Made by a program: the position numbers and the translations under genes | The notes under the pieces: model-generated | Seen by the model: the letters and a program-made list of their open reading frames with translations, nothing else | What the model was told of the DNA's origin: nothing | The model's database searches: none | Shown here: positions 8,472-64,000 of the stretch, piece after piece | Numbering within the stretch: the first letter of the stretch is position 1 | Layout: every line of letters begins with the position of its first letter | Source: Naegleria gruberi | Taxonomy: Eukaryota | Assembly: GCA_000004985.1 (NCBI GenBank) | Contig: GG738905.1 | Reading direction: 5' to 3' (one strand) | DNA length: 64,000 bases

Positions 8472-8542
8472 CCCTATGTGTCTGCATTCTTCAATCCTAA
8501 ACGATTCATTGTTCGAGAGGAATTGTATGTCAAAATGCCAAA

Positions 8543-8920
8543 GTCTTCATCTTCTGAATATGATTCAAAGAAAGTTGCCTAATTTTTGAGGGATGAGAAT
8601 TGATGGATTGAAAGCCTCCATCTCATTGAGAATGAGCATTGACAATAATAGTGGAATCATTCAATGTCGATTTGAAACTATTTCAAATAAATTTCGAGTT
8701 GGAATCTGCTACTTTTTTTAAGTGTTTGGTGATAAACGTTGGGTCAATTTGTTACTTTCCATTTTGAGGAGTCATGCAGATTTCTTGAATGAAAGTTGAA
8801 GTGAGTACCCCACTCACTAAGGTTTATTGTAAACTACACACACCAATAAATATGAAAAATTTTTGTCTGAAAAAATTTCAACACAGCAAGATGTTAAAAG
8901 ACAAGATTTACGCTCTTATT
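8543..8920 (+). repeat. Left terminal repeats of the DIRS-like element: A at 8543..8793 followed directly by B at 8794..8920.
   Basis: Near-identical copies sit at the right end in the order B' (12797..12925) then A' (12976..13240), with a 50-N gap between them. Confidence 0.75.
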
Positions 8921-9900
8921 AAAGAACACTCCAGTGATGTTATGGCTAGTATGCCTCCAAACACCATCAAGATGGTATTGGATCTACTTGGCGAAAACCC
9001 TGAAGACAAAGAAAGATGGCTAGAAATTGTTGAAGACGCAGGTGGTGCGTTATTCAACAACTTCTCAACAAAAGCAGAGGCCCAGGAATACTTTACCAAA
9101 GGTATTAAGAAGTTAGCAAAGAGTGGTAAAGTTGCTTCCACTAGAAGTAAGACTACCTCTTTGCAAGAGGCAAGCACTCCAAGTAACATGAATAAGACTT
9201 CTTCTTCATCTCAAATGGCTACCCCAAAGGTTTCTAGCGTTAGTCAGGTTAGAGAGTTCGTCCAAAAGAGAAGGATTGAAGAAACAGACGACAAGGAGTG
9301 GAAGAGAAGAGGTGTTATTCTTGACCCAGCTGATTTCCTTGAAAAGCCAGCTACTTGGAATCTCCCAAGTAGACAACAATGGGAAGAGATGAACCGCCAA
9401 ATCAACATTTTAGTGGTCGGTAAACAGGTTGAAGAAAAGGTTAAGGAAACGTTTCCGCCATTGAGTACCAATAACCAAGCATTGAAAGCAGAGTACGACA
9501 CCTTGAAAGAGGTCGCAGGAAGCGTCTACGGTGCTGCATTGTTGAACAAGGATGAGTCAGTTGCAGACAAGTTGGAGGGTGCCATTGAATATATCAAGGA
9601 GAAAGCGGTACACCTCAAGCTCGTTTCCTTCGACAAGCATCTTGCGGAGAAGGTTCGTATCATTCGTTCAGATAAGACCTGGAGAGAACAGGCTGACCTT
9701 ATTAAGGTCGCCTCCAAGTTGATGAAGGTAGAAAGTGAAGTGATTAAGAATGGAAACTTGCCAGTCATCAATAATATGACTAAAGCTGTTGAAAAGGCAA
9801 GAGATACCTATCCTGTAGCTTCCCACTGTTTCAAATGCGGAGAAGTTGGACACTTGGCAAAGAATTGCAATAAATCCACTTCCAAATACGTCTCGGTAAG
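8789..9900 (+). CDS. DIRS-like element Gag-like protein with a C-terminal CCHC zinc knuckle. This is the 5' part of the 1321-codon open frame.
   Basis: CFKCGEVGHLAKNC lies at about 9829..9870. The upstream ~340 aa are charged and helical, typical of retroelement capsid-like proteins. Confidence 0.6.
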
Positions 9901-10034
9901 TACTATTTTTCGATCCTCCAGATGCGGCAGAGATACGGGAGAGGAAACAAGCTGTTCACTCCATTTCGAATGCTTGGAAGGAGTGGAAGAGAAGAGGAGC
10001 GAAACCTTCGATAATAAGGCTCCTGAAAGAGGGT

Positions 10035-11852
10035 GTGAAAGTGCTTCCTTCAACAGGGTTCAAAAGATCAGTGGAGACAGTAAATTCAGCCAAGTTCTCA
10101 ATAAGGGAACTACAGTGGTTGGAAAGGGAGATAAATTTGCTAAAGAAGATTGGTGCATTAGAAGCTTGTCAGAATGCGGAAGTAGTGGCCAAGTTCAGAT
10201 TGGTACCAAAGGGAGAACAGTACAGATTGATTGTAGACTTGAGACCCTTAAACAAATATTGCCTCATCCCCAAATTCAAGTACAACACATTGAAGAGATT
10301 CTTAGAGTTTATTCCAGAATCTGGAACCATGTTCCTATCATCATTCGATTTGAAGTCTGGGTACCACCAGCTAAAAGTCCACAAGGACTCAAGAAAATTT
10401 TTTGCTATCAACTATTTTGGACAATTATTACAGTTTACTGTGTTGCCCTTTGGCTGGAATGGATCACCATAGAACTTCACTTTGGTAATGAATCAAGCGG
10501 TAATTTTGATGGAATCACCACTCATGCGTCTTTCCAATTATTTGGACGATGTGCAAATAGTGAATGTAGTGGAAGAAACAATAGCCGTACAGAATGTAGA
10601 AATATGCAGGGAAGATGCAAACCAGCTTGGTTTAGTGTTAGAGAGAAGAAAGAGTGTAATGAAACCAATGACAGAATTAGTAGTGTTGGGGTCATGTGTG
10701 AATATTATAACGAAGACACTATCAATGACAGAGGCTACGATAGTGAAGATTACGAATATGATAAAATCAGTACTCACGCGGATTCATTTAGGCAAAACAG
10801 TGTCGGTAAGGAAGATGAGTTCGATAAGCGGGACAGTGATTGCTTATTTGGAATGTTTTATCCCAGCAAGGGTGATGCTTGCTCCCATATTCGCCTTAAT
10901 AGCAAAAACAGTAGTGAAGTACGGATGGAAAGCTTCGGTATTCGTAAGGGATGTCAGGGTCATTCACAACCTTCAATGGATTATTGCAAATATAAGGATG
11001 TGGAATGGAAAACACTTCCAGAGGCCATCATTGGTCTATTACTTCTGGACAGATGCATCAGATTGGGGTTGGGGAGCATATTTCGAGGAGAAGGACTTGA
11101 AGATAGGTGGTCAATGGTCGGAACAAGAAAGAAAACTTCATATCCATATAAGAGAAATGTTAGCGGTGTTAAGAGCTTTGATGGAATGGAAGCATTTGTT
11201 CGAAGAGAGAAAGATCATTATTTATGTGGACAATTGGATTATCTTACACAACATTTTAAAGGGATGGGCAAAAAGCCCACTTATGAGAAGGTTAATTATG
11301 AGCTTCTGGAGAATTATATTCAGCCACAATATAACTCTATTGTCTGTGGAATGGTTACCGTCGGAAGAGAATTATATGGCAGACGGGATCAGCAGGGGGA
11401 TAATGAACGATCCCACGGATTGGGAGATGACTATTCCAGCATTTCAAAGGATTCAGAAGGAACTTCTAGTGGAAATAGGATTCGACAGATTCGCTTCCCA
11501 CGTAAGCTTCAAAGTCAAGCCTTACATGGTAAGAGAAAGAAATTTCAGAGGAGAGAAAGCAGACGCCTTCTCTACATTATGGACAGAAGAGGTTGTAAAT
11601 TTGTGTTGCGTCCCATTCAACTTAATAGGAAGAGTATTGAAACATTGCGAAGAATCAAAAGCTATAATGGTGTTGATTCATCCAGTATGGAAGAGAAGGT
11701 TTTGGTGGCCAATTCTAGAAAAGTATCGTATAAGGAGTGTATCGATGAATGGAAAGGACTTCTTTACAAAGTCCAATACAGGTCACGTAGAACCTTGCAA
11801 GAAATCTTGGCTATTAGAGGCAAGTCTGATAGATTGTCGAACTCGGAACTAA
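10035..11852 (+). CDS. DIRS-like element Pol with RT, RNase H and a methyltransferase-like domain. It lies in the +1 frame relative to gag and YR and is interrupted by an in-frame TAG at 10470..10472.
   Basis: The two frame-0 ORFs 10035..10472 and 10482..11852 are colinear with a canonical RT. The stop falls between motif B (LPFGWNGSP) and motif C (YLDDVQIV). The RNase H catalytic motifs are intact. Confidence 0.7.
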
Positions 11853-12754
11853 TTAGAATTGCCAAGGAGGTCATTAGCTCTCACAGATACAAAGAGAGCA
11901 CTGACAAGAACTACAGAAGATATTGGGTGCGCTTTATTAGATTTAACATTGAAAGAAAGGCTTGTTTTCCTCCTTCAGAAGATAATCTTATTGCTTTCCT
12001 GACGAACATGTTCCTTAAAACACCGTCAGGAAGCAACTGCAGTGCAGCATATGCTGCTATCATGGCATTTGCCAAGAAATTTAGTTTAGATCAGGGAATG
12101 CGAGGAGATAATATTCGAGAAGTTTTAAATGGAATGACTAATCTTTCAAGAGTGGCTAGTGAGAAGGAAAGAAATGCTTGGCAACTAGAATTTATTAGAA
12201 AGTGGGTGAGCATAGGTAGGAGAAGCGTGTCTGACAGAGAATTTGTATTATACACATCTATGATGATCATAGGTCTACGAACTATGTTGAGAGGAAGTGA
12301 ACTTGGTGAACTAAAGACCGAAGATGTTCAATTTCTTCGCTTGGAGAATGGTAAAATGGCAGTCAAATTGAAATGTAGAAGAGTTAAATCTAGTCAGGGT
12401 AGAATGGGTAGAATTATGTGTATAGAGAGTACAGGAAATGATTTGTGCCCAGTATCTTGGTTGAATAGGTGGATGGTGTATAGAGATCAAGGTGATTACT
12501 TATTTGGTAATAGTAAGGCTTTGACTACAATCGACATTTCGTGGATACTGAGATTTGTGGCGTCAGTTATTGGAGTAGATGGATGTTTCTCCTCTCATTC
12601 TTTAAGAATTGGAGGTGCTAATGAAGCAGCTCAAGCAGGTTTTTCTCTCGCTGCTATTCAAGCTTTAGGCAACTGGTCTTCAAATGCGGTTGACAAATAT
12701 TTCAGATCTGAGTTTTTCTATAGTAGAAACGTATCAAAAGAATTGGGTTTCTAG
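11830..12754 (+). CDS. DIRS-like element tyrosine recombinase (YR). This is the 3' part of the long frame-2 ORF.
   Basis: N-terminal SAM-like motif YRRYWVRFIRF. Box I R in LRGSELGELKTEDV. H-x-x-R in HSLRIGG. Catalytic Y in AVDKYF. Confidence 0.7.
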
Positions 12755-12796
12755 TAGGGGCTCATTGTTTTCGTATTTATTGGTGTGTAGTTGGAT

Positions 12797-13240
12797 AAAT
12801 TGAAGTGAGTACCCCACTCACTAAGGTTTATTGTAAACTACACACACCAATAAATATGAAAAATTTTTGTCTGAAAAAATTTCAACACAGCAAGATGTTA
12901 AAAGACAAGATTTACGCTCCCACCANNNNNNNNNNNNNNNNNNNNNNNNNNNNNNNNNNNNNNNNNNNNNNNNNNAAAGTCTTCATCTTCTGAATATGAT
13001 TCAAAGAAAGTTGCCTAATTTATGAGAATGGATGAGAATGGATGGATTGAAAGCATTTCATCTCATTGAGAATGAGTATTGACAATAATAGTAGAATCAT
13101 TCAATGTCGATTTGAAACTATTTCAAATAAATTTCGTTATTGCAATCTGCCACATTTTTTAAGTGTTTGGTGACAAATGTTGGTCAGTTTGTTATTTTCC
13201 ATTTTTGAGGTGTCACGCCGATTTCTTGAATGAAAGATTT
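12797..13240 (+). repeat. Right terminal repeats of the DIRS-like element, B' then A', separated by a scaffold gap.
   Basis: B' is a direct copy of 8794..8920 and A' a direct copy of 8543..8793. B' is preceded by the 19-nt inverted repeat tatttattggtgtgtagtt / aactacacacaccaataaata, which can form a hairpin. Confidence 0.7.
12926..12975. other. Assembly gap of 50 N inside the right terminal repeat of the retroelement.
   Basis: A run of N. Confidence 0.95.
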
Positions 13241-20409: not shown

Positions 20410-21490
20410 TTATTGGAATGGTTGTGGAGGATATCCCATTTGAGGTGGGTAACCCATTTGAGGTGGGTAACCCATTTGAGGTTGTTGAGGGTAACCTTGC
20501 ATTGGCTGTTGTGGATAGCCTTGCATTGGTTGTTGAGGATAACCTTGCATTGGTGGTTGTTGTGGATAACCTTGTTGCATTTGAGGGTAACCTTGCATTG
20601 GTGGTTGTTGTGGATATTGTTGATAACCCATTTGAGGTTGTTGTTGGGGATAACCTTGCATTGGTTGTTGTTGAGGGTAGCCCATTGGTTGTTGAGGATA
20701 TCCATAACCTTGCACTCCCTGTGGTTGATAACCCATTGGTTGTTGTTGTTGTTGTTGTGGATAACCATAACCTTGAACTGGTGGACCTTGATTGAGTGGT
20801 TGTGATTGAGTAACTGATTGAGTTGGCATGGCTTGTCCAAAATCTTCAGCCAACAATTCCACAGTCAAAGTACCCAACTTGGAATATTGCAATTTGAGAT
20901 CGACACGTTGTGGTTGTCCCTTATATAAAGTTCCCAAAGCAACTGTTGCCTTACCAATAATATCATTTCCTCCAAAACGATCATAATCATAAACTTCAAA
21001 GACAGCACTTTCACTGGCTGGATTAACAGAAGGAGGCAAATCAAAGAACAAGGTTGTGTTCCATGTTGGATTGCAATTTTTGCTGATGTGATCAGTCTTT
21101 CTTTGAACGGAACCAATTGTTACTCTAACATATGGATCTAAATAGTATTAATTAATTAATATATAATGATGATGATAATGAATGATTATTAATATATATA
21201 TGAATAATATTTGTTAACCAATCACAAAATCATTGTTAATGTACAAAACAATATTAAATATATTAAAATCGATTGTACATTGTAGTTGAATAACACAAAT
21301 AATATAAGAAATATTTCATTGTTATAAGAAATTCATCATCATGGATGTAACATCACCAAAATTCATCATCATCATCACATGTAAAATTAAATCATCATCA
21401 AATTCGCATCATCAACCTACCAGAAGTACCACCAACATCCTTTCCTTCCAAATTTCTAGCAGAAATAACAGTAATCTTGAGTTTGCCCAT
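20410..21490 (-). CDS. SRC2-like C2-domain protein, copy 3. Exons 21421..21490 and 20410..21137, with an AT-rich intron of about 283 nt. The tail is made of (Q/M)GYPQQP repeats.
   Basis: [24 protein letters not shown] | [55 protein letters not shown]... The tail reads [28 protein letters not shown]. Confidence 0.65.
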
Positions 21491-21708
21491 TCTTTGTGTG
21501 TCTATTTTTTGCTAAAGTTTCCATTCCGTGTTGCTTGTTTGAGAAACTCATCGCGTTTCATGTGTTTTATAAATAAGAATGGATCGCTCATGTTCATGTG
21601 TGTATTTTTACCGCCAAAAAAAACTACAATATGAACTTTGTTTTATTCCTTACCTCTGGGGTTGATGATGGGAATGTAAAATTATAATTTAATATAACAG
21701 TTAGTTTA

Positions 21709-22080
21709 TTAAGTTTGACTTGGATGAGGAGAACCTCTCAAGTGAGGAAGAATAGTATGATGTTGGGAATGATGAGGTTTGAAATGAGAAATAATTGGTC
21801 TGATTATATGATGAGAACCAAATACTTTGAATGGTGGTTGGACGGTATCACCCGATTGTTGTGGTGTAGGAATGGAAATTTGTGGCAATTGTTCTTGTTG
21901 GACGGTATCACCTGATTGTTGAGGGGTTGGAATGGAAACTTGTGGTAATTGTTCTTGTTGGACAGTATCGCCTGATTGTTGTGGAGTTGGAATGGAAATT
22001 TGTGGAAGTTGGCAATCAACTAAACAATTGGCAATAATGAAGCATGAAATGAATAGCAAGAGAATGAGAAATTTAGTCAT
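21709..22080 (-). CDS. Small secreted protein of 123 aa with three tandem 20-aa repeats (QLPQISIPTPQQSGDTVQQE).
   Basis: Signal peptide MTKFLILLLFISCFIIANCLVDC. There are three near-perfect 60-nt repeats at the DNA level, about 21815..22000. Confidence 0.45.
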   Translation of the reverse strand: MTKFLILLLFISCFIIANCLVDCQLPQISIPTPQQSGDTVQQEQLPQVSIPTPQQSGDTVQQEQLPQISIPTPQQSGDTVQPPFKVFGSHHIIRPIISHFKPHHSQHHTILPHLRGSPHPSQT

Positions 22081-22383
22081 CTTTTTTGAAAATGTTACTA
22101 ATACCTTTTCATTCTTCCTGAATTTGAATCATTGTAATGCCAATGAACAATGTTAAATTGATATGTTTCGTTTAAGGATATTTACAGTTTAAAGATTTTT
22201 CCCAAGAGAGGATTTGGACACTTTGGTATTTTCAAGCAGATGGTAATGTTATATTTATATAGTAATTCATCTTTTGTGAAGTTAGAAATCCAACTGTTTG
22301 TGACCTCTGCGTGTTAGAAGAAGAAGGAGAACTATATAAGGAAGATAATGTATTATTTACACAATTTCAAGAAGAAATTCAAA

Positions 22384-23152
22384 TTATTGATATGGTGGAT
22401 ATCCTTGTTGAGGAGGATATTGTTGTGGTGGATATTGTTGTGGGTATCCTTGTTGTGGTGGAAAACCACCTTGTTGTGGGTATCCTTGTTCAGGAGGATA
22501 GCCATATCCTTGCATTGGAGGTTGTCCATAGTATGGTTGTTGTGGATATCCTTGTTGTGGTGGATACATTTGTTGTTGAGGGTAACCTTGTTGAGGGTAA
22601 CCTTGTTGAGGATATCCTTGTTGTTGTGGTGGAAAACCACCTTGTTGTGGATTAGTTGTGGTTTGAGTAGTAGTTGGTATGGCTTGTCCAAAATCTTCTG
22701 CCAACAATTCAACAGATAAGATTCCATTCCTTGAGTTGGCCAACCTTAAATCAACTTTTTGAGCGTGTCCTTTGTAAAGTGTTCCCAAAGCAATTGTTGC
22801 TCTTCCAATCAAGTCAGAAGATCCCAAACGATCATAATCAAAAACTTCAAAAGAAGCTGATTCTGTGGCTGGGTTGACACTTGGTGGCAAATCAAAGAAG
22901 AGAGAAGTATTCCAAGTTGGATTAGTAGTCTTGGTCAAGTGGTCAGTCTTGTGTTTAATTGTTCCAACAGAAACAACAACAAAAGGATCTATTCAGTGTT
23001 TAAAATATGATATTATTATTCAGTAGGATTATACAGATGTAAGTGTAATGATCAATGAAATTGTTTAAATAGTAACACCTACCTGATGTACCTCCAATAT
23101 CCTTTCCTTCTAAATCACGTGCAGAAATGATGGTTACTTTAAGTTTGCCCAT
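22384..23152 (-). CDS. SRC2-like C2-domain protein, copy 4. Exons 23083..23152 and 22384..22988, with a 94-nt intron (22989..23082). The tail is GYPQQ repeats.
   Basis: [24 protein letters not shown] | [55 protein letters not shown]... The tail reads [68 protein letters not shown]. Confidence 0.7.
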
Positions 23153-27162: not shown

Positions 27163-30100
27163 TTATATTCTTCTTTCACTTTGTGAGTAAGTGTTGGCAT
27201 TTCTGTTACCACCATAATTGTTTTGTTGGGAAGCATAAGGACTTTGTCTAGCTTGGGAGTATGGGCTAGTAGATGGTTGTTGATTGGATGGTTGTTGATT
27301 GTTGTTGGCAGTAGTGGAATAAGGTGATTGTTGGGCAGCAACTGTGGCAGCGTATGGACTTTGGGAGTAAGGTGATTGTTGAGGAGTTGAGGAAGCATAA
27401 GGTGATGGGGCATACGGACTTGTTTGTGGTGTAGAACTGTATGGAGACTTTTGATAATTATTGTTAGAATTGGACGAGTATGGACTATTTTGATAATTTG
27501 GAGGATTAGTTCTTTGACCTCTATCATATGAATCATCTCTTCTTTGATACCTACTATCACCACCATAATTTCTATTTTCATTTCTATTATCATTTCTATT
27601 ATCATTTCTATCAGAATAGTTGCGATTATTATTTCTATCACCAGAATAGTCTCTGTTGTATCTGTTGTTATTATCATTTCGGTTATTATCATAGTTTCTG
27701 TCAGAATTATTTCTATATGAATTATTTCTGTCATCTCTATTGTCATTTCTTTGGTAATCCCTGTTATCATTACGTTGATAATTCGATCTGTCACCTCTGT
27801 CATAATTTCTATTATCTCTGTTATCATTACGTTGATAGTTATTGTCTCCTCTATTTCTATTGTGGAAGTTGCCACTTCTTGAAAAGTCTACACGTTCTCT
27901 ATTGTTATAGTCGTGTCTGCCTCCACCTCCATTTCTTCTAAAGCTCAAATAGTTATTTCTTGGTTTACCATTCATAATATTATCAATCATTTCTCTTGAA
28001 GAGCAGAAAGTGACAGTCTTTTCACCATTTTGTCCAATTACAACTGGAACACTGCCTGAATCCAAAATTGTTGGCAACATTCTTGGAGGAAGTGTTACAT
28101 TTGGTAATAATTTGGCAATATACTTGCACTTGGATTTTTCAACCAATGGGAAATCAAAACAAGCACTAACAGCTGCAGTCTCTGCAACATCATCTAATAA
28201 ATCAGCTTTCCATGGTACCTTAACCATATCTGAAGGTGCCACCGAGAGTGGATCTTGTCTGAATGTACCTGCAACATCTTTTGATGCCTTATTAAAGTCA
28301 ACAAAGGAACTATCATCCAAATAGCATGACATGATTGAATTTTGGAGTGGATGTTCAAAGTGAACATATAGAGTAGTATTGCCTAGAGTATTTCTTTCCT
28401 TTTCCTCACTTGACAATTTAGGTTCAACAGTCTTGATGGCTGCTTGTAATTCTTCTTGATCAATGAAAGGAAGTAAGCATACACCCATCCATGTCTTGGT
28501 CTTTCCATTCAAATCAATCTTGAAATCTGTAGGGTAATAGTTAATAATTGGACTATCATCAGACAACATCAATTCACGATAACATGGAGGAAGAGCATGA
28601 GAACTTCTTGGAGGTAAAACACCCAACAATTGAGAGAAAGGTTTGTAAGGTTGACCTTTCTTAAAATTGAGACCAAGTTTTGAACTATCAACCATGGCCA
28701 TATCAGAAGCAAACGGAGCAAAATGGTAAGGATAGAACCAATCCCAAGAATCACAACCAGTATAATAATATCTAAATACCCAAACCAAACCTTCCAAATA
28801 TTTCAAAGAAACATCCCAATATTCATCAGTTCCAATATTAATATCCATCTTGTCCTTGTAATATCTTTCCTTCCATCCCTGAGAACCCAATTTCACTGTA
28901 TCAGGGAATTTTTCGGTATCAACATTCTTTGCTTCATCAAGTCTTAATTTCAAGCTATCTTGATATTGTTTGGAATCCATTTTAGAGATGGAAGATGAGG
29001 CAGCACCTTCAACCGAAGTTGTGGCTGTAGATGATGGTTCGGATGGTTGTTCCTCAGTTTCTTTTAACTTTTTTTCAACAGGAGCTTCCTCTTCCAATTC
29101 TTCATTTTCCTCCTCATCCTTTTTTCTTTTACCTAGGAATGATTTTTCAGGTGTATTTTCCAATCCTTGCTTTTTTCTGAAATCTTCATATGGATTTGTA
29201 ATGTGACCAAACTTTCCACGATGTTCTTTCAAAATTGGAACAATTTCAACACCTTCAGGTTTGTATGATTGATCCTTTCTTTCCTTTTGTTCACGCTTAC
29301 GTTGTTCTTGTTGTTTTTTAAAGTATTCTTCTCTCTTTTCTCTGACAGAGAATATTTTATCTTCATACTCTGAAACTTGTTTGAGCAGATACTGGACACG
29401 TGAAACATTGACATCACCATTTTCTGTAAGATAACCACCCATAACAGGTAAACTCTCCTTGTACAATGCAAGTAACAAGTCAATTGCACCTTCTCTAATA
29501 TCCAAAGAAGGTAAATGAGGTAAGAAATCGTTACCAACAAAGAAGCAAATAAAGACAAAATCATCCAAGCCTCTCTCAAATTCATATTGGAACGGAAGAC
29601 GATCAGTTTCTTGTAGCAATTCAATTTCCAAATATTCTCTCAGTACACTAATGTGTAAAATTTCTAATGGCTTGTATTCATAGGGATGGGCACCACTATT
29701 CTTCTTTTCCACATCATAACCCTTTCCTCCAGAATTTTTACCAAAATTGACTTTTTCTCTTAGATTGTAAAAGTATGGTTCGTGTGTTGCAAGAGCAAGC
29801 ATTGTAAGATCAGCATCCAATCCATGGATAACATGACTAGTATTTGGATTATATCCTTTCATTTCTCTTTGGGATCTAATAAAATCCATAATTTTATGTT
29901 CTCCTTCACCTGGAACATTTGCATCACTTAAAATAATTTTGACCTTTTTCCATCCTTCATCAGTGGTCAACTTCATGTGAATGAAATATCTTAGAGCTTT
30001 TCCTAGACGATACATGAAAGGAGTACCAGGAGTAATCACGTTTGAATCCCAATTATCTCCTGCAGGGTGAATTTCAAAATATTCATCCTCTTCCTCCTCC

Positions 30101-38900: not shown

Positions 38901-40026
38901 CACAGGATTTTCCATTGGAAGAATTGTTCAAGAATCACTCAATTCAGACACCTCTAAGCAAATTTTCACTTCTTCCATCTATACCATAGTTACCTCGAGT
39001 TTTATGGGTGCAATTCTTCTATTCTCACTTGTTGCAGTTTCCTTAATATTCATAGTTGACTTGATTTATGCCTTTGCTGTTGAATATAGAAAACCATACA
39101 TTGATACATCAGAGATTTCAGGAACTCTTGTGGAAATGAGTGAATCTCAAAGCTCTTCTGCATTCAGCACTGATTCGAATAGCAATTCCAAGAAGAAATT
39201 CAAAGATTTGGAAAGCTTTAAAAAGGCAAAGGATATTACCATGTCTTCCATGTACAAATTCTTTGTCCAAGATGATCCTTTATTCTTCCGTTGTGAGAGT
39301 TTGCTTTTCATTTTCTGTTTGGGAGTGTTATTGATCTCGTATGTGTTTGGAATTGTTGGATTAGGTTTCTTTACACTCACTGGAAAGGCATTGAGTACAA
39401 GTGAAAGCGCATTCGAAACTTCACTCGTTATGGATATCATCAGATTAGTTCTTTCAGTTGTGTACTTTGTCTTGTACATTCTGGTCTTTGGAGATTTGTC
39501 ACTTTTGATTTACATTTTCAAATATAGAAAGTACAGAGTTTCGTCCACTTCAGGTTCCACAAGTTTTTCATCTGAATCTCGATACGACAATGAATTACAA
39601 GAAATTCTGAATGACGGCTTAGCTTATTCCTTATTCGAAAAGTTCACAGTCAAGGAATTCTCAAAGGAAAACCTCCTCTGTTACAATTCCCTACAAGAAC
39701 TCGAAGATGAAAAACAATTTTATCAAAAAGATTTGGAAAATCAAGTGAAAATGTTGGAAGAAATCATTGAAAAATATTTAACACAAACTAGTTCATTTGA
39801 AGTTAACATTCCTTCGAACACAAGAAAGAATCTCATTAATTTGATTAAATCAAAGGAAGGTCTTACAAAGGAAAATGTAAAAAAGTCGCTGGAATCTTTG
39901 AAATCTGATATTCTGGTCAACTTGACTGATACCTTCTCAAGATTTACTACTTCTCAAAGTTATGAATTTTGGACGCAAATCAAGGAAGAAAAGGAAAGAT
40001 TGATGGCAAGAAATAAAATGGTTTAA
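36000..40026 (+). CDS. Large receptor combining an extracellular region of about 790 aa, a GPS/GAIN-type autoproteolysis motif, a 7-TM domain and a C-terminal RGS domain. The frame changes from 0 to +1 near 38800..38915 through an unresolved short intron or indel.
   Basis: Signal/anchor MTASTTVLICLLSYLFLSFFF. GPS motif LVCKYWNETVSDWLSNGCTRTALLTYGDYYVVECSCDHTTQFATFVEF, ending just before TM1 (YILWGFDIGIGVIFVIVSLIMLLL). Several TM helices continue in ORF 38791..40026. RGS signature LAYSLFEKFTVKEFSKENLLCYNSLQELEDEKQF...SQSYEFW. Confidence 0.65.
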
Positions 40027-40226
40027 TGTTTAAATTCAATAAGGTATTGGCAATTATTTTTCAATAGTAAGCCAAATCTGAATGAATCAAATTTGAGATT
40101 GATTTAAAATATTCTTTAATACGGAACTGAAAAGCTAAATTTCAAGGGTGTAAATACATTGTTTTAAAGGTTGAGGTTTATTTTAAGTGTTTCTAATTAT
40201 TTACAATTAATAATCATTTTCACACT

Positions 40227-41351
40227 TTAATGCTTTCTAGGAAATGCAAATAAATATTGAGGAGGAACTGCCACTTGATATTCCAATTCATGAGCAGCTC
40301 TAATTGGCCAATAAGGATCATTCAATTCCTGTCTTCCAATTAAAACCAAATCCGCCTTTTGATCCTTAATTAAATCATTAGCAAATTGAGCATCCTTAAT
40401 TTTACCGACAGCGCCAGTTGCCAATCCATCAACTGATTTCTTGACACCTTCAGAGAATGGAACTTGATAACCTTGAACAATGGAAGTTGGGGAAAGTAAT
40501 TTGGCATTTGCATTGTTGCCACCTGAAGAACAATCCAACAAGTCAACTCCACATTTTTGTAAAATTTTGGCTAGCTCTGTAGTATCTTTCATGGTCCATC
40601 CTTCATCACCAACATATTCATCTGCTGAAATTCTCACAAATAAAGGCATTTCACTTGGAATATTCGCTCTAATTCTTTCAACTAATTCAACCAAGAATCG
40701 AATACGATTTTCGAAACATCCACCATATTCATCACTTCTCTTATTCGAAGTTTGTGAAAGAAATGAAGAAATTAAATAACCATGAGCTCCATGAATCTCA
40801 ATTAAATCAAATCCTGCCTTAATAGCTCTCTTTGCAGCATCCACAAATTGCTGAATCACCTCTTGAATTTCCACAATGGTCAACTCTGCTGGAATTCTAT
40901 GATGTTCATCGAATGCAATTGGAGATGGACCTACAACATCCCATCCTCCTTGTTCATTTGTGAGTGCTTTTCTACTATTCGCTTCCCAAAGTCTTCCTGT
41001 TGATGCCTTTCGTCCGGCATGATTCAATTGTAAACCGATATGACCTCCTTGTTCATGGGCAAATTGAACAATTTTTGACAACATGTCAACATGTTCATCT
41101 TTGTAAATTCCCAAGCAGCCTGGAGAAATTCTACCAACATCTGAAACACCAGTTGCTTCTACGATAAATAAACCTGCTCCACCGACAATTCTACTGCCAA
41201 TATGTTGGACATGCCAGAAATTAGCAAATCCATCAGTTGCTGAGTACTGACACATTGGAGAAACGACAATTCGATTCTTTAATGTTAAGCCTCTAACGGT
41301 GAATGGTTGGAAAAGTGGTGGAATGGAAAGTTCTTGTTGTTGTGTGGACAT
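40227..41351 (-). CDS. Old Yellow Enzyme-family NADH:flavin oxidoreductase (YqjM/NamA-like), 374 aa, single exon.
   Basis: PLFQPFTVRGLTLKNRIVVSPMCQYSA, HVQHIGSRIVGGAGLFIVEATGV, GLQLNHAGRKAS, GFDLIEIHGAHGYLISSFLS. Confidence 0.85.
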   Translation of the reverse strand: MSTQQQELSIPPLFQPFTVRGLTLKNRIVVSPMCQYSATDGFANFWHVQHIGSRIVGGAGLFIVEATGVSDVGRISPGCLGIYKDEHVDMLSKIVQFAHEQGGHIGLQLNHAGRKASTGRLWEANSRKALTNEQGGWDVVGPSPIAFDEHHRIPAELTIVEIQEVIQQFVDAAKRAIKAGFDLIEIHGAHGYLISSFLSQTSNKRSDEYGGCFENRIRFLVELVERIRANIPSEMPLFVRISADEYVGDEGWTMKDTTELAKILQKCGVDLLDCSSGGNNANAKLLSPTSIVQGYQVPFSEGVKKSVDGLATGAVGKIKDAQFANDLIKDQKADLVLIGRQELNDPYWPIRAAHELEYQVAVPPQYLFAFPRKH

Positions 41352-41857
41352 TTTTTTGAATTTGAATTATTGGAAAGGTTAGTTTAGGAAAATCTATTTA
41401 TTCGAAAGTCGAGTTTCAATGAGGATGCAATTATTGTGAGGTTGCATAAATAATATCATCGAATTAAACAGTTCGTAAAAGAAAGTTTACCAAAACTGTT
41501 CGAAAGATAATCGTCCAAAAGATTGTAAATCTCCAAATATAGAATTTAGGATAGTAAATTAGATATTCCACTGTTCAACAATCTAGTTCATCTTAATTAT
41601 TCGAAATCCGAATAAATGGCGTTATTTTAAATATATTCATTTTGATGAACTAGAAAACAGTTCAAAAGTAGTTTCGAATAATGTCATTCTAATTTATCCG
41701 AATCTATTTCGTATAATTTTTTTACAATGAAATTTACAGTTTTCAATATTACAGTCATGTATTTGTTAAAATTAAATTGCTTCCATACAAAACATCAATT
41801 AGAAACAGAACACCTCAGACAAGTGACATTAAATAATTATTAAAAAATTTAAAAAAA

Positions 41858-58260: not shown

Positions 58261-58700
58261 TTCAAGAATATAAGCTGCGGATTAAACAATTGTGTATGAT
58301 TTGCATTTTTTAAAATCAAAAGAACATGTTTTGGCGGGAAGCTTGGTAATTGGTTTATTGGACTAAATTTCACGCAATAAATCATCTTCATCAGGAGATT
58401 CATCTAGCCACTGAGATTCATCTACCTTATTCCTTTTTTTTTNNNNNNNNNNNNNNNNNNNNNNNNNNNNNNNNNNNNNNNNNNNNNNNNNNGCGGATTA
58501 ACAATTGTGTATGATTTGCATTTTTTTAAAATCAAAAGAAAATGCTTTGGCGGGAAGCTTATTGGACTAAATTTCACACAATAAATCATCTTCATCAGGA
58601 GATTTACTTGTTCATTTGGAAATTCATCGAGCCACATCAGTTCTGAGGTTGGAGACAACTTGGGAACCTGTGGTGCTGCAGTCTCTCTACCTTATTACTT
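58261..58700. repeat. Local tandem duplication of about 180-230 bp flanking a scaffold gap, immediately 3' of the tRNA-Asn gene.
   Basis: 58261..58443 (gcggattaaacaattgtgtatgatttgc ... ctaccttattcctttttttt) is repeated at 58493..58700 (gcggattaacaattgtgtatgatttgc ... ctaccttattactttttttgtg) with a few indels. Confidence 0.7.
58444..58492. other. Assembly gap of 49 N.
   Basis: A run of N. Confidence 0.95.
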
Positions 58701-58733
58701 TTTTTGTGTTTGGATTCTGTCATAAAAAGGTAA

Positions 58734-58805
58734 ATATCAGGGAAGGAGTTGAACCTCCGCCGAATCGTTAACAGCGACTCATGCTTACCACTACACTACC
58801 TGAAA
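58734..58805 (-). tRNA. tRNA-Asn (anticodon GUU), 72 nt. It may be slightly degenerate, with one U-U mismatch at acceptor pair 2-71.
   Basis: Minus-strand sequence TTTCAGG TA GTGT AGTGGTAA GCAT G AGTCG CTGTTAA CGATT CGGC GGAGG TTCAACT CCTTC CCTGATA T. This gives U8, A14, G18G19, A21, a T-loop TTCAACT with G53/C61, U33 and A37. A T-rich run (CCTTTTT), Pol III terminator-like, follows. Confidence 0.6.
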
Positions 58806-59090
58806 TACCCCATCAAAGCTCTAAAAATTCTGAGCTAATTGACAAATTTAATTTTAGTACTGAGAGTTCCATTTGCAGAATTTAATAAACTTACTTTAAA
58901 TTGCCAAGTGTATTAAGAAACGAACAAACTAGACTGTTACAGGGCAGAATTCGGTGCTGTATCTTTGCAATTGTTGATGTCAAGAAGCTAAAATATATTT
59001 GGTAAATCACTCTTTACCTTACAGAATGCTGGAATGACTTGTTATAAAATATTAAATTAAAAGATATTCGAAATATAATACATTTTATGG

Positions 59091-60107
59091 TTATCTTCTT
59101 ATTAAAGGTAAAGTTGTGGCAACTTTTTCGTCCAATTCCCTTTCGTCATCATCGTCTTCATCACATTTCTTTTCCTTAACATTGATACGATCAGGAGTAC
59201 TTGGAGTGGAGGATGTGGATGGCACTGAACTTGGTTGCTTCTTGGCAAAAACAACTTGAACGAGACCCATAGTAATCTTATAGAACCAGAAAATATTTAA
59301 AATACAAATTGAACCAATCATTAGAGTTACAAGAATAATCCAACCAAGTGGGAATGAACACCAAGTTTCAGAATCTTCCCAAACCAAATGTGGTATGTAA
59401 AAGCAGAATGAAATTCTAACAATACCGAATGTCAACCACATCAAGATGCCATTATAAGCATATAATTTGGAATCTTTCATATTGCATTTAGAAAAGAAAT
59501 ATCTTTGATTCACAAAAGGTGTAGAAATTTCAGTAAACATCATGATAACCATCAATACTATGCATTTTTCCCAGACAGCACTTCCAAGCAATGCAACTAT
59601 TGAAATAGAATGGTGGAGAACTGTTTCCATACCTCCCAGGTGAGGATAATTTCTTGCAACAATGTACAAGTCATATAAAAAGTAGCCAACACAATAGCCA
59701 ATCAAGAAAATGCATGAACGATCGGAAAGTGACAAAATTCCAACGTTAGGGGATGGCAGATAAACAAATACGATACAGTACAATGAAATTAGTGAAGAAA
59801 GAATTGCATGAATATTAGAAACAATTCTACTATTCCATTCTCTTCTTTCTTTTTCCTCGCCAAAAATCTTCTTCTTAAAAGTAGTGCTATATTTCTTTGA
59901 AAACCAATCTGATCCGTAAGCATACATTAGAGAGTGAAAGATTAAACTCAAAACACTCATCACAGGAAGTAATAAACCAAAATTCTGAGGAGGATGGTCT
60001 GGTGTTGAGAAAACACCCTCGTTGACATACCAACTCCATCTATTAACAAAACTACTTAATAATCCATTCTTACTATCGATAAATCCACAAACTGCTGCAG
60101 AAGACAT
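59091..60107 (-). CDS. TLC-domain (TRAM/LAG1/CLN8; TLCD/TMEM56-like) polytopic membrane protein, 338 aa, single exon.
   Basis: There are six or more TM helices. The conserved HH is in METVLHHSISIVALLG. An acidic C-terminus ends KKCDEDDDDERELDEK. Confidence 0.6.
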   Translation of the reverse strand: MSSAAVCGFIDSKNGLLSSFVNRWSWYVNEGVFSTPDHPPQNFGLLLPVMSVLSLIFHSLMYAYGSDWFSKKYSTTFKKKIFGEEKERREWNSRIVSNIHAILSSLISLYCIVFVYLPSPNVGILSLSDRSCIFLIGYCVGYFLYDLYIVARNYPHLGGMETVLHHSISIVALLGSAVWEKCIVLMVIMMFTEISTPFVNQRYFFSKCNMKDSKLYAYNGILMWLTFGIVRISFCFYIPHLVWEDSETWCSFPLGWIILVTLMIGSICILNIFWFYKITMGLVQVVFAKKQPSSVPSTSSTPSTPDRINVKEKKCDEDDDDERELDEKVATTLPLIRR

Positions 60108-61823
60108 TTTACAATATATTGGACGTTATAGTCAGTCAAGAACGAGAGGATTAAATTGATCAGGAGAATAGAACTGATTCGGAAAATCTCTAAAGATCAA
60201 CCAATATATATTCAATACTACCACTACAAATGAGAGTGTAATTGCACACAACGAGCTTGCACTTCTAGAAAGCTTGTTGTTATTGTTGTGAAAGCAGAAG
60301 AATATTCTCTGTTGCAACTTTTTTCAAAGGCTTGCTGAAAAAAAGTGAAGTGAATTTTTTTTTGAGTCGAAACAGCCCAACAACTTTCGGCTGTGTGGTC
60401 ACCACTCGCATTCGAAACAAGGAAGAAAAGCTTTGATTTTTTGCATGGTCGATTTCCGCTACCTTCAGATGAGACGCAAAAAAGATTCGATCTTATTCGA
60501 AGAGGATCACCGTCAATTTGTCAAGTTTCAACTGTCAAGATGATCTATTCGAATCCATTTTTGAAAAAAATTAAAGCATTACTATTATTTAAAACATGAT
60601 AATATTATTATTGGCGAGTTGGTAGATTGCTGATCAACAAGATTGGAGTGGTTGATTGTCAAAAACCGTAATGTAGTTTGTTGTGGAAATGTTGAAAAAT
60701 ATTCGAATCGTGAGTTGGAAGAATCTCAGTTTAGTTGAAAGTTCGTAAAAGTTCGGAATATACTCTCCATTCCAACACAGAAACACTTGGGTTTTGTAAT
60801 GGAAATAATTTTCTTCTTTTTTCATGAAGCCTCATCTATGCCCAAATCGGGAATTGAATATTTATTGTTATTATTATTTTATTATTGTGGAGTGTTTTAT
60901 ACACTGTGTAAGAGGAGATGAAACAATTACTGTACAAATATCTTGTAATTATTGATGAGGAGAAACAACATCCTTCTCCGCGGAATAAACCAAGAATCAA
61001 ATAATTTACAAAAAAAAAATAAACAACAACAACTTCATCAAGAAGAGGGTTCCATCATCAACACATGCTTCTAAGTAATCACTGCGACTTCCAAAGTAAA
61101 ATCCTTCCGATCCTTTGCAGCAACAATTAAAGCACTAGGAGTTAGTGGGATTGGAAGTAAATGTTTGTCTACAAAAATCGTCAAACTAATTTATTTTGAA
61201 TAATAGCATCACCAAACTGTATCCATCTTCTTTTAGCTTTTGATTTCTATTGTCTATTAGCTTTATATCTTGTTGGTGTTTGTTGGCTTGTTTATACTAT
61301 CATTTCCAGACATGTGGAGATTCAAATGTATTGTCATCACTAATTCATAACAATTTGAAATGACTACCAAGTGATTACTTACTATTATTCATTGGATTGA
61401 TAGAGAATATTTTGAATAAGGTTTACCATAGTATTTGGAATAGGATTGTAATAATTTGATTGATATTACTTCTGCTACCATCATAATTGTTTTAACATTC
61501 ATCACCACCAATCTAATCTTTGATTGAGTAGAATTGTCATCATCTAATATACTTCTGTGTACTCAATAAAAGGAGAATACCTCTACTCATCATCACTACT
61601 GATATTTATCATCATTTTGGAATATTTCAATTATAGTAACTGGGCTACATCTCACCAATAGTAATAGTAGTAGTATTGCTTAATGGTGATTCTTCTCGGA
61701 ATGAATAATAGTAGTTTTCTATCATCGGAAAATTCAAACTTCTAATCATCATTACGCTGGAATTCATCATAGTTTGATTAATTTTGAAAATACACTCAAG
61801 TAGTTCATCATCCTCCAAACTTT

Positions 61824-63119: not shown

Positions 63120-63169
63120 NNNNNNNNNNNNNNNNNNNNNNNNNNNNNNNNNNNNNNNNNNNNNNNNNN
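63120..63169. other. Assembly gap of 50 N.
   Basis: A run of N. Confidence 0.95.
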
Positions 63170-63352: not shown

Positions 63353-63889
63353 TTATTTTCTTTTTTTATTCTTTCTTCTTATTGGCTTGACTATTTCTTC
63401 TTCTTCTTCTTCTTCACTCTCTTCCTCTCCATATATTACAATATTTACATTTTCATCTTCTTCTTCTTCATCATCATCATTATTATCATTATAAATTATT
63501 TCAACTCTTTCATCTTCTTCATCTTCTTCAAATTCTTCTAATTCATCTTCTTCATCCTCTTTATCATCATAAATTACAATATCTTCATCTTCTTCTTCTT
63601 CTCCATCATATTCTTCTTCTTCTTCTTCAACTTGTTCATCTCTATCTTTTCTAATTTTTCTAATTTTAATTATTTCAAATACTTCTTCATCTTCTTCTAT
63701 ATTTTCATCTTGTTCATCATAATTTTCATCTTGTTCATCATAATTTTCTTCTTCTTCTTCTAATCCAATTTCTTTTCTCAAATTAATATCATTTAAGGTT
63801 CCATTAATCTTGGCAATATTTAATCTATGAATCATCATTTTCTTTAAATGAGTATTCTTTCTTTCCATTTTAACAATCTCTCTTTCCAT
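63353..63889 (-). CDS. Subtelomeric highly acidic (E/D-rich) protein of 178 aa with a basic C-terminal tail (RRKNKKRK).
   Basis: The ORF reads MEREIVKMERKNTHLKK, then long E/D tracts, then IVKPIRRKNKKRK. The underlying DNA is a GAA/GAT-rich simple sequence, so it may be real or a chance ORF. Confidence 0.35.
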   Translation of the reverse strand: MEREIVKMERKNTHLKKMMIHRLNIAKINGTLNDINLRKEIGLEEEEENYDEQDENYDEQDENIEEDEEVFEIIKIRKIRKDRDEQVEEEEEEYDGEEEEDEDIVIYDDKEDEEDELEEFEEDEEDERVEIIYNDNNDDDEEEEDENVNIVIYGEEESEEEEEEEIVKPIRRKNKKRK

Positions 63890-63918: not shown

Positions 63919-64000
63919 TAAATTGAGGGGTTTGGGTTTGGGGTTGGGGTTGGGGTTGGGTTGGGTTTGGGTTTGGGTTTGGGTTTGGGTTTGGGTTTGG
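63919..64000 (+). repeat. Telomeric repeat array at the window end. GGGGTT and GGGTTT hexamers are mixed on the + strand (G-rich strand 5'->3' toward the end).
   Basis: The sequence reads gaggggtttgggtttggggttggggttggggttgggttgggtttgggtttgggtttgggtttgggtttgggtttgg and continues to the last base of the window. Confidence 0.8.

What the first reader, a model, noticed from the sequence alone, without database searches (positions are those of the whole stretch)
63919..64000. Chromosome end: telomere made of mixed GGGGTT and GGGTTT units
The window ends in an uninterrupted array of about 80 nt with three or more GGGGTT units, then GGGTT, then six or more GGGTTT units. Mixed G4T2/G3T3 telomeres are characteristic of very few lineages, classically Paramecium. 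But the genes here use the standard code with 50-280 nt introns, so this is not a ciliate macronucleus. That makes the repeat a useful taxonomic clue. It also suggests a telomerase with an imprecise or dual-register template in this organism.
Basis: seen in the sequence. Interest (0 to 1): 0.5.

Follow-up and report, generated by a model that had tools for sequence, protein, structure and literature searches.

The report
Naegleria gruberi TTTGGG chromosome-end telomere
The window ends in a genuine-looking telomere of the amoeba Naegleria gruberi, built on the TTTGGG unit already proposed for this species in 2013, and the few TTGGGG units sit in one block near the inner junction, so this is an ordinary, already known feature and not a Paramecium-like mixed telomere.

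Summary
A pure G/T array fills window 63927-64000 (74 nt). It occurs once in the window, is far above chance, and has the G-rich strand running 5'->3' into the end, which is telomere polarity. The host is Naegleria gruberi NEG-M: a window ORF is 100% identical to an N. gruberi predicted protein on a 290,827-bp record. It is not a ciliate. Fulneckova et al. 2013 (PMC3622300) already named TTTGGG as the candidate N. gruberi telomere, from scaffold ends of this same draft assembly. The "mixed G4T2/G3T3" reading is not supported. The array is [G] 2x GGGTTT, 3x GGGGTT, one 5-nt GGGTT that shifts the register, then 6x pure GGGTTT to the end. The variants form one proximal block, and the distal half is uniform. 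Paramecium telomeres are random mixtures produced by misincorporation at one template position. The layout here fits the usual degenerate telomere-proximal zone better. With only 12 units the statistics are weak (P 0.008-0.07), and I could not retrieve other N. gruberi ends. Seven environmental contigs ending in TTTGGG arrays show a pure repeat from the junction outward. No telomerase RNA or template-like motif lies in the window. Verdict: already known, low interest.

The parts
63927..64000 (+). Telomeric G-strand array, 74 nt of G/T only, cut mid-unit by the end of the window
   Evidence: period 6, 12.3 copies, unique in the window, 7 matches against 0.34 expected by chance.
63927..63939 (+). 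Junction units: G (either flank or an extra G) followed by 2x GGGTTT
   Evidence: The first G-run has 4 G, so the unit can be read as GGGGTTT or as flank G + GGGTTT.
63940..63957 (+). Block of 3 contiguous GGGGTT variant units
   Evidence: These units are in the same hexamer register as the two preceding GGGTTT units.
63958..63962 (+). Single 5-nt unit GGGTT that shifts the hexamer register by -1
   Evidence: the phase of G-run starts changes from 0 to 5 at this point.
63963..64000 (+). Distal uniform tract: 6x GGGTTT + GG, the canonical N. gruberi unit
   Evidence: It matches the TTTGGG candidate telomere of N. gruberi.
63353..63889 (-). Last ORF before the telomere (178 aa, very acidic). It is transcribed away from the end, its ATG is 37 nt from the first repeat unit, and its frame stays open through the telomere. 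Context only; it may not be a real gene.
   Evidence: No Pfam family, no homologue, no exact product on record.
63120..63169 (.). 50-N assembly gap. The telomere sits on an 831-bp terminal contig joined to the rest of the scaffold only by scaffolding.

Best explanation
This is the telomere at one end of a Naegleria gruberi NEG-M draft-genome scaffold. The canonical unit is TTTGGG (G-strand GGGTTT). It is presumably added to the 3' end by telomerase, copying an RNA template that carries about 1.5 copies of CCCAAA. The outer, uniform GGGTTT tract is the part that telomerase keeps renewing. The first ~36 nt next to unique DNA (2x GGGTTT, 3x GGGGTT, one GGGTT) is a degenerate proximal zone: units altered by point change or slippage, or by occasional telomerase error, that persist because the innermost repeats are rarely eroded and resynthesised. 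Shown here: the sequence, its position, its polarity, its uniqueness, the species identity, and the block-wise layout of the variants. Inferred: synthesis by telomerase, the origin of the variants, and that the window end is the physical scaffold and chromosome end.
For: The array is pure G/T, 74 nt, terminal, with the G-strand 5'->3' towards the end. It is far above chance and unique in 64 kb. The species is N. gruberi: TLC-domain ORF 59094-60107(-) is 100% identical over 100% of its length to an N. gruberi predicted protein on a 290,827-bp record, and the OYE ORF has its best named hits in Naegleria and Willaertia. TTTGGG was already listed as the candidate N. gruberi telomere, found at scaffold ends of the draft assembly. 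All non-canonical units lie within the first six units, and the last six are pure (P=0.0076; P=0.03 under the alternative parse, and P=0.018 for the three G4T2 units being contiguous and proximal). A 5-nt unit breaks the hexamer register, which a single-position misincorporation cannot produce. An array that begins 74 nt before an arbitrarily placed window end would be a roughly 0.1% coincidence, so the window end is most likely the scaffold end (inference). Seven environmental contigs ending in TTTGGG in telomeric polarity are pure from the junction outward, which shows that a TTTGGG-templating enzyme need not produce TTGGGG.
Against: Only one end and 12 units were available, so the clustering tests are weak (P 0.008-0.07, depending on parse and test). 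I could not retrieve the NCBI scaffold, so the claim that the array is at the scaffold end rests on inference plus the 2013 report. The telomere-bearing 831-bp contig is attached through an N-gap (63120-63169), and no independent sequence confirms that link. The N. gruberi repeat has never been confirmed experimentally (the 2013 paper calls it a 'candidate'). I did not verify TERT or a telomerase RNA in N. gruberi. The environmental contigs are from unidentified organisms, not Naegleria.
Confidence: 0.8

Rival explanations
1. A Paramecium-like variable telomere: N. gruberi telomerase is intrinsically imprecise at one template position, or uses two templates or registers, and synthesises both TTGGGG and TTTGGG.
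For: Both hexamers are present in one uninterrupted array. They differ at exactly the position that varies in Paramecium, GGG[G/T]TT. The sample is too small to exclude a mixture with long runs.
Against: In Paramecium the mixture is random. Here the three GGGGTT units are contiguous and proximal, and the distal six units are pure. The GGGTT 5-mer and the possible GGGGTTT 7-mer do not fit a one-position substitution model. The 2013 survey recorded the N. gruberi repeat simply as TTTGGG. The terminal TTTGGG arrays in metagenomes are pure.
Confidence: 0.1
2. Not a true chromosome end: either an interstitial telomere-like microsatellite cut by the window boundary, or a small telomeric contig attached to the wrong scaffold.
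For: Internal (GGGTTT)5+ microsatellites are common in environmental DNA; most of the 120 stretches are internal. The last 831 bp are joined only across an N-gap. The full scaffold could not be fetched.
Against: The polarity is the telomeric one. The array touches the window end exactly, which is improbable for an arbitrary cut. The unit equals the repeat seen at scaffold ends of this assembly by others. There is no other copy in 64 kb. Even if the contig were mis-scaffolded, it would still be a telomere, only of another chromosome end.
Confidence: 0.06
3. A healed break: the telomere was added de novo inside or just upstream of a gene, and the irregular first units are the scar of the initial addition.
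For: There is no subtelomeric repeat. The last ORF's ATG is only 37 nt from the first unit, and its reading frame stays open through the telomere.
Against: The ORF has no homologues and no domain, so truncation cannot be shown. Much of it is a (TTC)n-like low-complexity tract that may not be coding. CCCAAA-type repeats contain no stop codon in that frame, so an open frame through the array is expected by construction.
Confidence: 0.04

Closest known systems
Candidate TTTGGG telomere of Naegleria gruberi (Fulneckova et al. 2013, Genome Biol Evol, PMC3622300)
   Same: Same species and same draft assembly, and the same unit at a sequence end. All six distal units are GGGTTT, as are 7 or 8 of the 12 complete units depending on how the first G is read.
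   Different: Nothing essential. The main text of that paper does not mention the proximal TTGGGG, 5-nt or 7-nt variant units seen at this end, and its supplementary table S5 was not available to me.
Paramecium macronuclear telomeres (random TTGGGG/TTTGGG mixtures from misincorporation at one telomerase RNA template position; cited in bioRxiv 10.1101/2025.11.06.686955 / PMC13085455)
   Same: The same two hexamers occur, differing at the same position.
   Different: Here the variants form one proximal block and are not randomly interspersed. A 5-nt unit breaks the (GGG[GT]TT)n register. The distal half is pure TTTGGG. The organism is a heterolobosean with the standard genetic code, not a ciliate.
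Degenerate telomere-proximal variant repeats, for example TTGGGG/TGAGGG/TCAGGG at the base of human telomeres (from general knowledge, not tested here)
   Same: Variant units are concentrated next to the unique DNA, with homogeneous canonical repeats distally.
   Different: The zone here is tiny (about 36 nt), and only one end was seen. The total telomere length is unknown, because a Sanger draft assembly retains only the first repeats.
Tetrahymena-type TTGGGG telomeres
   Same: The three variant units are exactly TTGGGG.
   Different: TTGGGG is the minority here and is absent from the distal part.

Membership tests
Telomerase-type terminal minisatellite telomere | Tandem short T/G-rich units (TxGy) | tested here: met
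   Period 6, 12.3 copies, 95% matches. The 74 nt contain only G and T.
Telomerase-type terminal minisatellite telomere | [quoted passage not shown] | tested here: met
   GGGTTT is on the + strand at the right-hand end of the window.
Telomerase-type terminal minisatellite telomere | Located at the physical end of the chromosome or scaffold | tested here: inconclusive
   The array runs to the last base of the window. The full 290,827-bp record could not be fetched. That the window end is the scaffold end is an inference from the improbability of an arbitrary cut, plus the 2013 report.
Telomerase-type terminal minisatellite telomere | Same repeat at the other chromosome ends of the same genome | not testable with these tools
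Fulneckova 2013 reports TTTGGG as the candidate from scaffold ends.
Telomerase-type terminal minisatellite telomere | Telomerase (TERT plus an RNA with a complementary template) present, and the repeat synthesised in vitro (TRAP) or Bal31-sensitive | not testable with these tools
   No telomerase RNA family is found in the window. The only CCCAAA-permuted 9-mer is one chance hit inside the XRN coding region at 28778. The literature searches found no Naegleria telomerase RNA or TERT study.
Paramecium-type variable telomere | Whole array conforms to (GGG[G/T]TT)n, with variation at a single position only | tested here: not met
   The array splits into two runs (63928-63957 and 63963-63998) separated by a 5-nt GGGTT unit that shifts the register.
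Paramecium-type variable telomere | The two hexamers are randomly interspersed along the telomere | tested here: inconclusive
   The three G4T2 units are contiguous and proximal, and the distal six units are pure G3T3. P ranges from 0.008 to 0.07 depending on parse and test. This leans against the feature, but n is only 12 units.
Paramecium-type variable telomere | Host is a ciliate (Paramecium) with a reassigned genetic code and a macronuclear genome | tested here: not met
   100% identity to an N. gruberi protein. Long standard-code ORFs run throughout the window.
N. gruberi TTTGGG candidate telomere (2013) | Species is N. gruberi and the unit is TTTGGG at a sequence end | tested here: met

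The most novel reading that the evidence does not exclude
N. gruberi telomerase may genuinely synthesise TTGGGG alongside TTTGGG, through low fidelity at one template position or through two telomerase RNA variants in this highly heterozygous, possibly polyploid strain. That would be a convergent, non-ciliate counterpart of the Paramecium variable telomere, in a lineage whose telomerase RNA is still unknown.
Probability: 0.08. Interest if true: 0.4.

Novelty: already known. Interest (0 to 1): 0.12.

Why it matters
It matters little beyond bookkeeping. The array marks one real chromosome or scaffold end of N. gruberi and agrees with the published candidate repeat. That is useful for judging assembly completeness, and as the template motif (CCCAAA, about 1.5 copies) to search for the still-undescribed heterolobosean telomerase RNA. 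The proximal TTGGGG block is a minor detail that long-read data could put in context. It would become interesting only if it recurred distally at many ends.

Tried and rejected
1. My first guess from ORF composition was a dictyostelid. I rejected it after the homology searches.

2. A ciliate origin is rejected: the genes use the standard code, and one protein is 100% identical to an N. gruberi protein.

3. I tried to fetch the N. gruberi scaffold, or other ends, through exact-protein look-ups. Only short ENA metagenome contigs of a 92-97% related strain came back. None reaches the telomere.

4. The homology search with the terminal ORF, meant to find the orthologous end or to show truncation, returned nothing. 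Pfam also found nothing.

5. The metagenome scan for (GGGTTT)5 gave mostly internal microsatellites from unrelated, often high-GC, organisms. Eight arrays lie at a contig end in telomeric polarity with AT-rich or moderate-GC flanks. L017's array stops 9 nt short of the contig end, so I set it aside. L119 looks archaeal-like from its ORFs, so its terminal repeat may not be a telomere. None resembles the window, so these contigs serve only as a loose comparator.

6. An Rfam scan and a template-motif search for a telomerase RNA in the window found none.

7. Literature searches for Naegleria telomerase RNA, TERT or long-read telomere descriptions found nothing beyond the 2013 survey. Its supplementary table S5 is not held.

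Full report
**Observation.** The last 74 bases of the window (63927-64000) contain only G and T. Parsed by G-runs, the array is GGGGTTT, GGGTTT, GGGGTT x3, GGGTT, GGGTTT x6, then GG, where the window ends. The first G may belong to the flank (…AAATTGA|G), in which case the first unit is a plain GGGTTT. Tandem Repeats Finder reports period 6, 12.3 copies and 95% matches. GGGTTTGGGTTT with up to one mismatch occurs 7 times, all inside the array, against 0.34 expected from dinucleotide shuffles, and 0 of 100 shuffles reach 7. Neither strand carries the repeat anywhere else in the 64 kb.

**Organism.** The window is 34% G+C and contains three 50-N gaps, so it comes from a scaffolded draft assembly. 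An Old Yellow Enzyme ORF has its best named hits in Naegleria gruberi (85%), N. lovaniensis (67%) and Willaertia (60%). The TLC-domain ORF at 59094-60107(-) is 100% identical over its whole length to a 'predicted protein [Naegleria gruberi]' located on a 290,827-bp record. The window is therefore N. gruberi NEG-M (assembly ACER00000000, 784 scaffolds; table quoted). It is a heterolobosean amoeboflagellate with the standard genetic code, not a ciliate.

**What is known.** Fulneckova et al. 2013 (PMC3622300) state that no telomere information accompanied the N. gruberi genome paper. [quoted passage not shown] So the repeat at the end of this window is the published candidate, from the same assembly. 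It has not been confirmed experimentally. I found no paper in the library on a Naegleria telomerase RNA, on TERT, or on long-read telomere structure. The N. fowleri nanopore paper does not mention telomeres at all.

**Is it a chromosome end?** The polarity is correct: the G-rich strand runs 5'->3' into the end. The array reaches the final base of the window. If the window boundary were arbitrary, the chance of it falling inside the only such array in 64 kb would be about one in a thousand, so the window end is most likely the scaffold end. That is an inference. I could not fetch the NCBI record, because exact-protein look-ups returned only short ENA metagenome contigs of a related strain. One further caveat: the array lies on an 831-bp terminal contig joined to the scaffold across the N-gap at 63120-63169, and nothing I could retrieve spans that gap. 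By contrast, the related-strain contig L122 does span the gap at 58443-58492.

[quoted passage not shown] I tested the array against that definition.
- It does not fit a single (GGG[GT]TT)n register. It splits into 63928-63957 (2x G3T3, then 3x G4T2) and 63963-63998 (6x G3T3), separated by a 5-nt GGGTT unit that shifts the phase.
- The G4T2 units are not interspersed. They form one contiguous block in the proximal half.
- The distal half is uniform TTTGGG.

Exact combinatorial tests gave the following results:
- P=0.0076 that all five non-canonical units fall within the first six positions.
- P=0.03 under the parse that assigns the first G to the flank.
- P=0.018 that the three G4T2 hexamers are both contiguous and proximal.
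- P=0.067 on a runs test.

With twelve units these values are suggestive, not decisive. The layout is what is generally seen at the base of telomeres: inner repeats are rarely turned over and accumulate variants, while the outer tract reflects what telomerase currently makes. That last point comes from general knowledge, for example of human proximal variant repeats.

**Related sequences.** Most are internal microsatellites in unrelated, often high-GC, DNA. Seven contigs end exactly in the array in the telomeric orientation, with AT-rich or moderate-GC flanks: five from one project (JAESGV01: L009, L058, L061, L074, L098), plus L012 and L119. In all seven the repeat is pure GGGTTT from the first unit next to unique DNA. 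The only exception is two aberrant units at the very tip of L012, probably read-end error.
- The JAESGV01 contigs carry long standard-code ORFs of eukaryotic type and share nothing with the window.
- L119 looks archaeal-like from its ORFs and may not be a telomere at all.

These contigs show that TTTGGG caps occur in at least one other AT-rich environmental eukaryote, and that such ends need not contain TTGGGG. They are not Naegleria and cannot settle the question.

**Surroundings.** There is no subtelomeric repeat. The last ORF (63353-63889, minus strand, 178 aa, extremely acidic) starts 37 nt from the first telomere unit, and its frame stays open through the repeat. It has no Pfam domain, no homologue and no exact product on record. 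Much of it is (TTC)n-like low complexity. I therefore cannot say whether it is a real gene, or whether the telomere truncates it. An open frame through CCCAAA repeats is expected in any case, because that frame (Pro-Asn) has no stop codon. No telomerase RNA family and no template-like CCCAAA-permuted motif of significance occurs in the window.

**Mechanism.** Most likely (confidence about 0.8), this is an N. gruberi chromosome-end telomere maintained by telomerase copying a CCCAAA-type template. It would have a short degenerate proximal zone holding a three-unit TTGGGG block and one slipped 5-nt unit. The sequence, position, polarity, uniqueness, species and block-wise layout are shown. Telomerase involvement and the origin of the variants are inferred. 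The rivals are:
- a genuinely imprecise, Paramecium-like enzyme (about 0.1);
- an internal or mis-scaffolded array (about 0.06);
- a healed break (about 0.04).

**Verdict.** The feature is already known as the published candidate repeat for this species and assembly. Interest is low.

Noticed in passing
window 8540-13236: A tyrosine-recombinase retroelement (DIRS/Ngaro-like). ORF 8789-12754(+) has a zf-CCHC knuckle and a C-terminal phage-integrase domain. An overlapping frame, 10482-11852, has RT-RNaseH. The element is flanked by split direct repeats: A 8540-8795 = 12976-13236 and B 8793-8915 = 12797-12919. An N-gap (12926-12975) lies inside the right-hand repeat.
   Followed up: partly
window 40227-41351 (-): An intact 374-aa Old Yellow Enzyme ORF with no exact product on record. 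Its best N. gruberi protein match is only 85% identical, so it appears to be unannotated in the NEG-M protein set. Outside Heterolobosea its best hits are bacterial (53-56% identity), which hints at an old lateral transfer into the Naegleria/Willaertia lineage.
   Followed up: partly
window 63353-63889 (-): The terminal, very acidic 178-aa ORF has its ATG 37 nt from the first telomere unit, and its reading frame stays open through the telomere. It has no homologues and no domains, so it may be a spurious ORF over a (TTC)n-like tract or an orphan subtelomeric gene.
   Followed up: partly
window 58733-58806 (-): A tRNA-Asn (GTT). It is the only Rfam or ARAGORN RNA hit in the window.
   Followed up: yes
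L001 (vs window 39112-41787) and L122 (vs window 58296-61066): ENA metagenome ERZ929261 (PRJEB11402) contains contigs 97% and 92% identical in DNA to this N. gruberi region, so a close relative of NEG-M occurs in that environmental sample. Relative to L001, the window carries about 256 extra bases between 41312 and 41569. L122 spans the assembly gap at 58443-58492.
   Followed up: partly
L009, L058, L061, L074, L098 (JAESGV01 contigs), plus L012: Several contigs of one metagenome project end in pure (TTTGGG)n arrays in telomeric polarity, with AT-rich flanks and long standard-code eukaryote-type ORFs. This is an unidentified environmental eukaryote that shares the N. gruberi-type telomere repeat.
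   Followed up: partly
window 20435-22629: A dense set of coding-type tandem repeats (periods 15, 18, 24, 27, 48 and 60; for example 21837-22005, period 60, 2.8 copies, 89% matches), rich in TTG/GGT units. This is probably a repetitive Gln/Pro-rich protein encoded on the minus strand.
   Followed up: no
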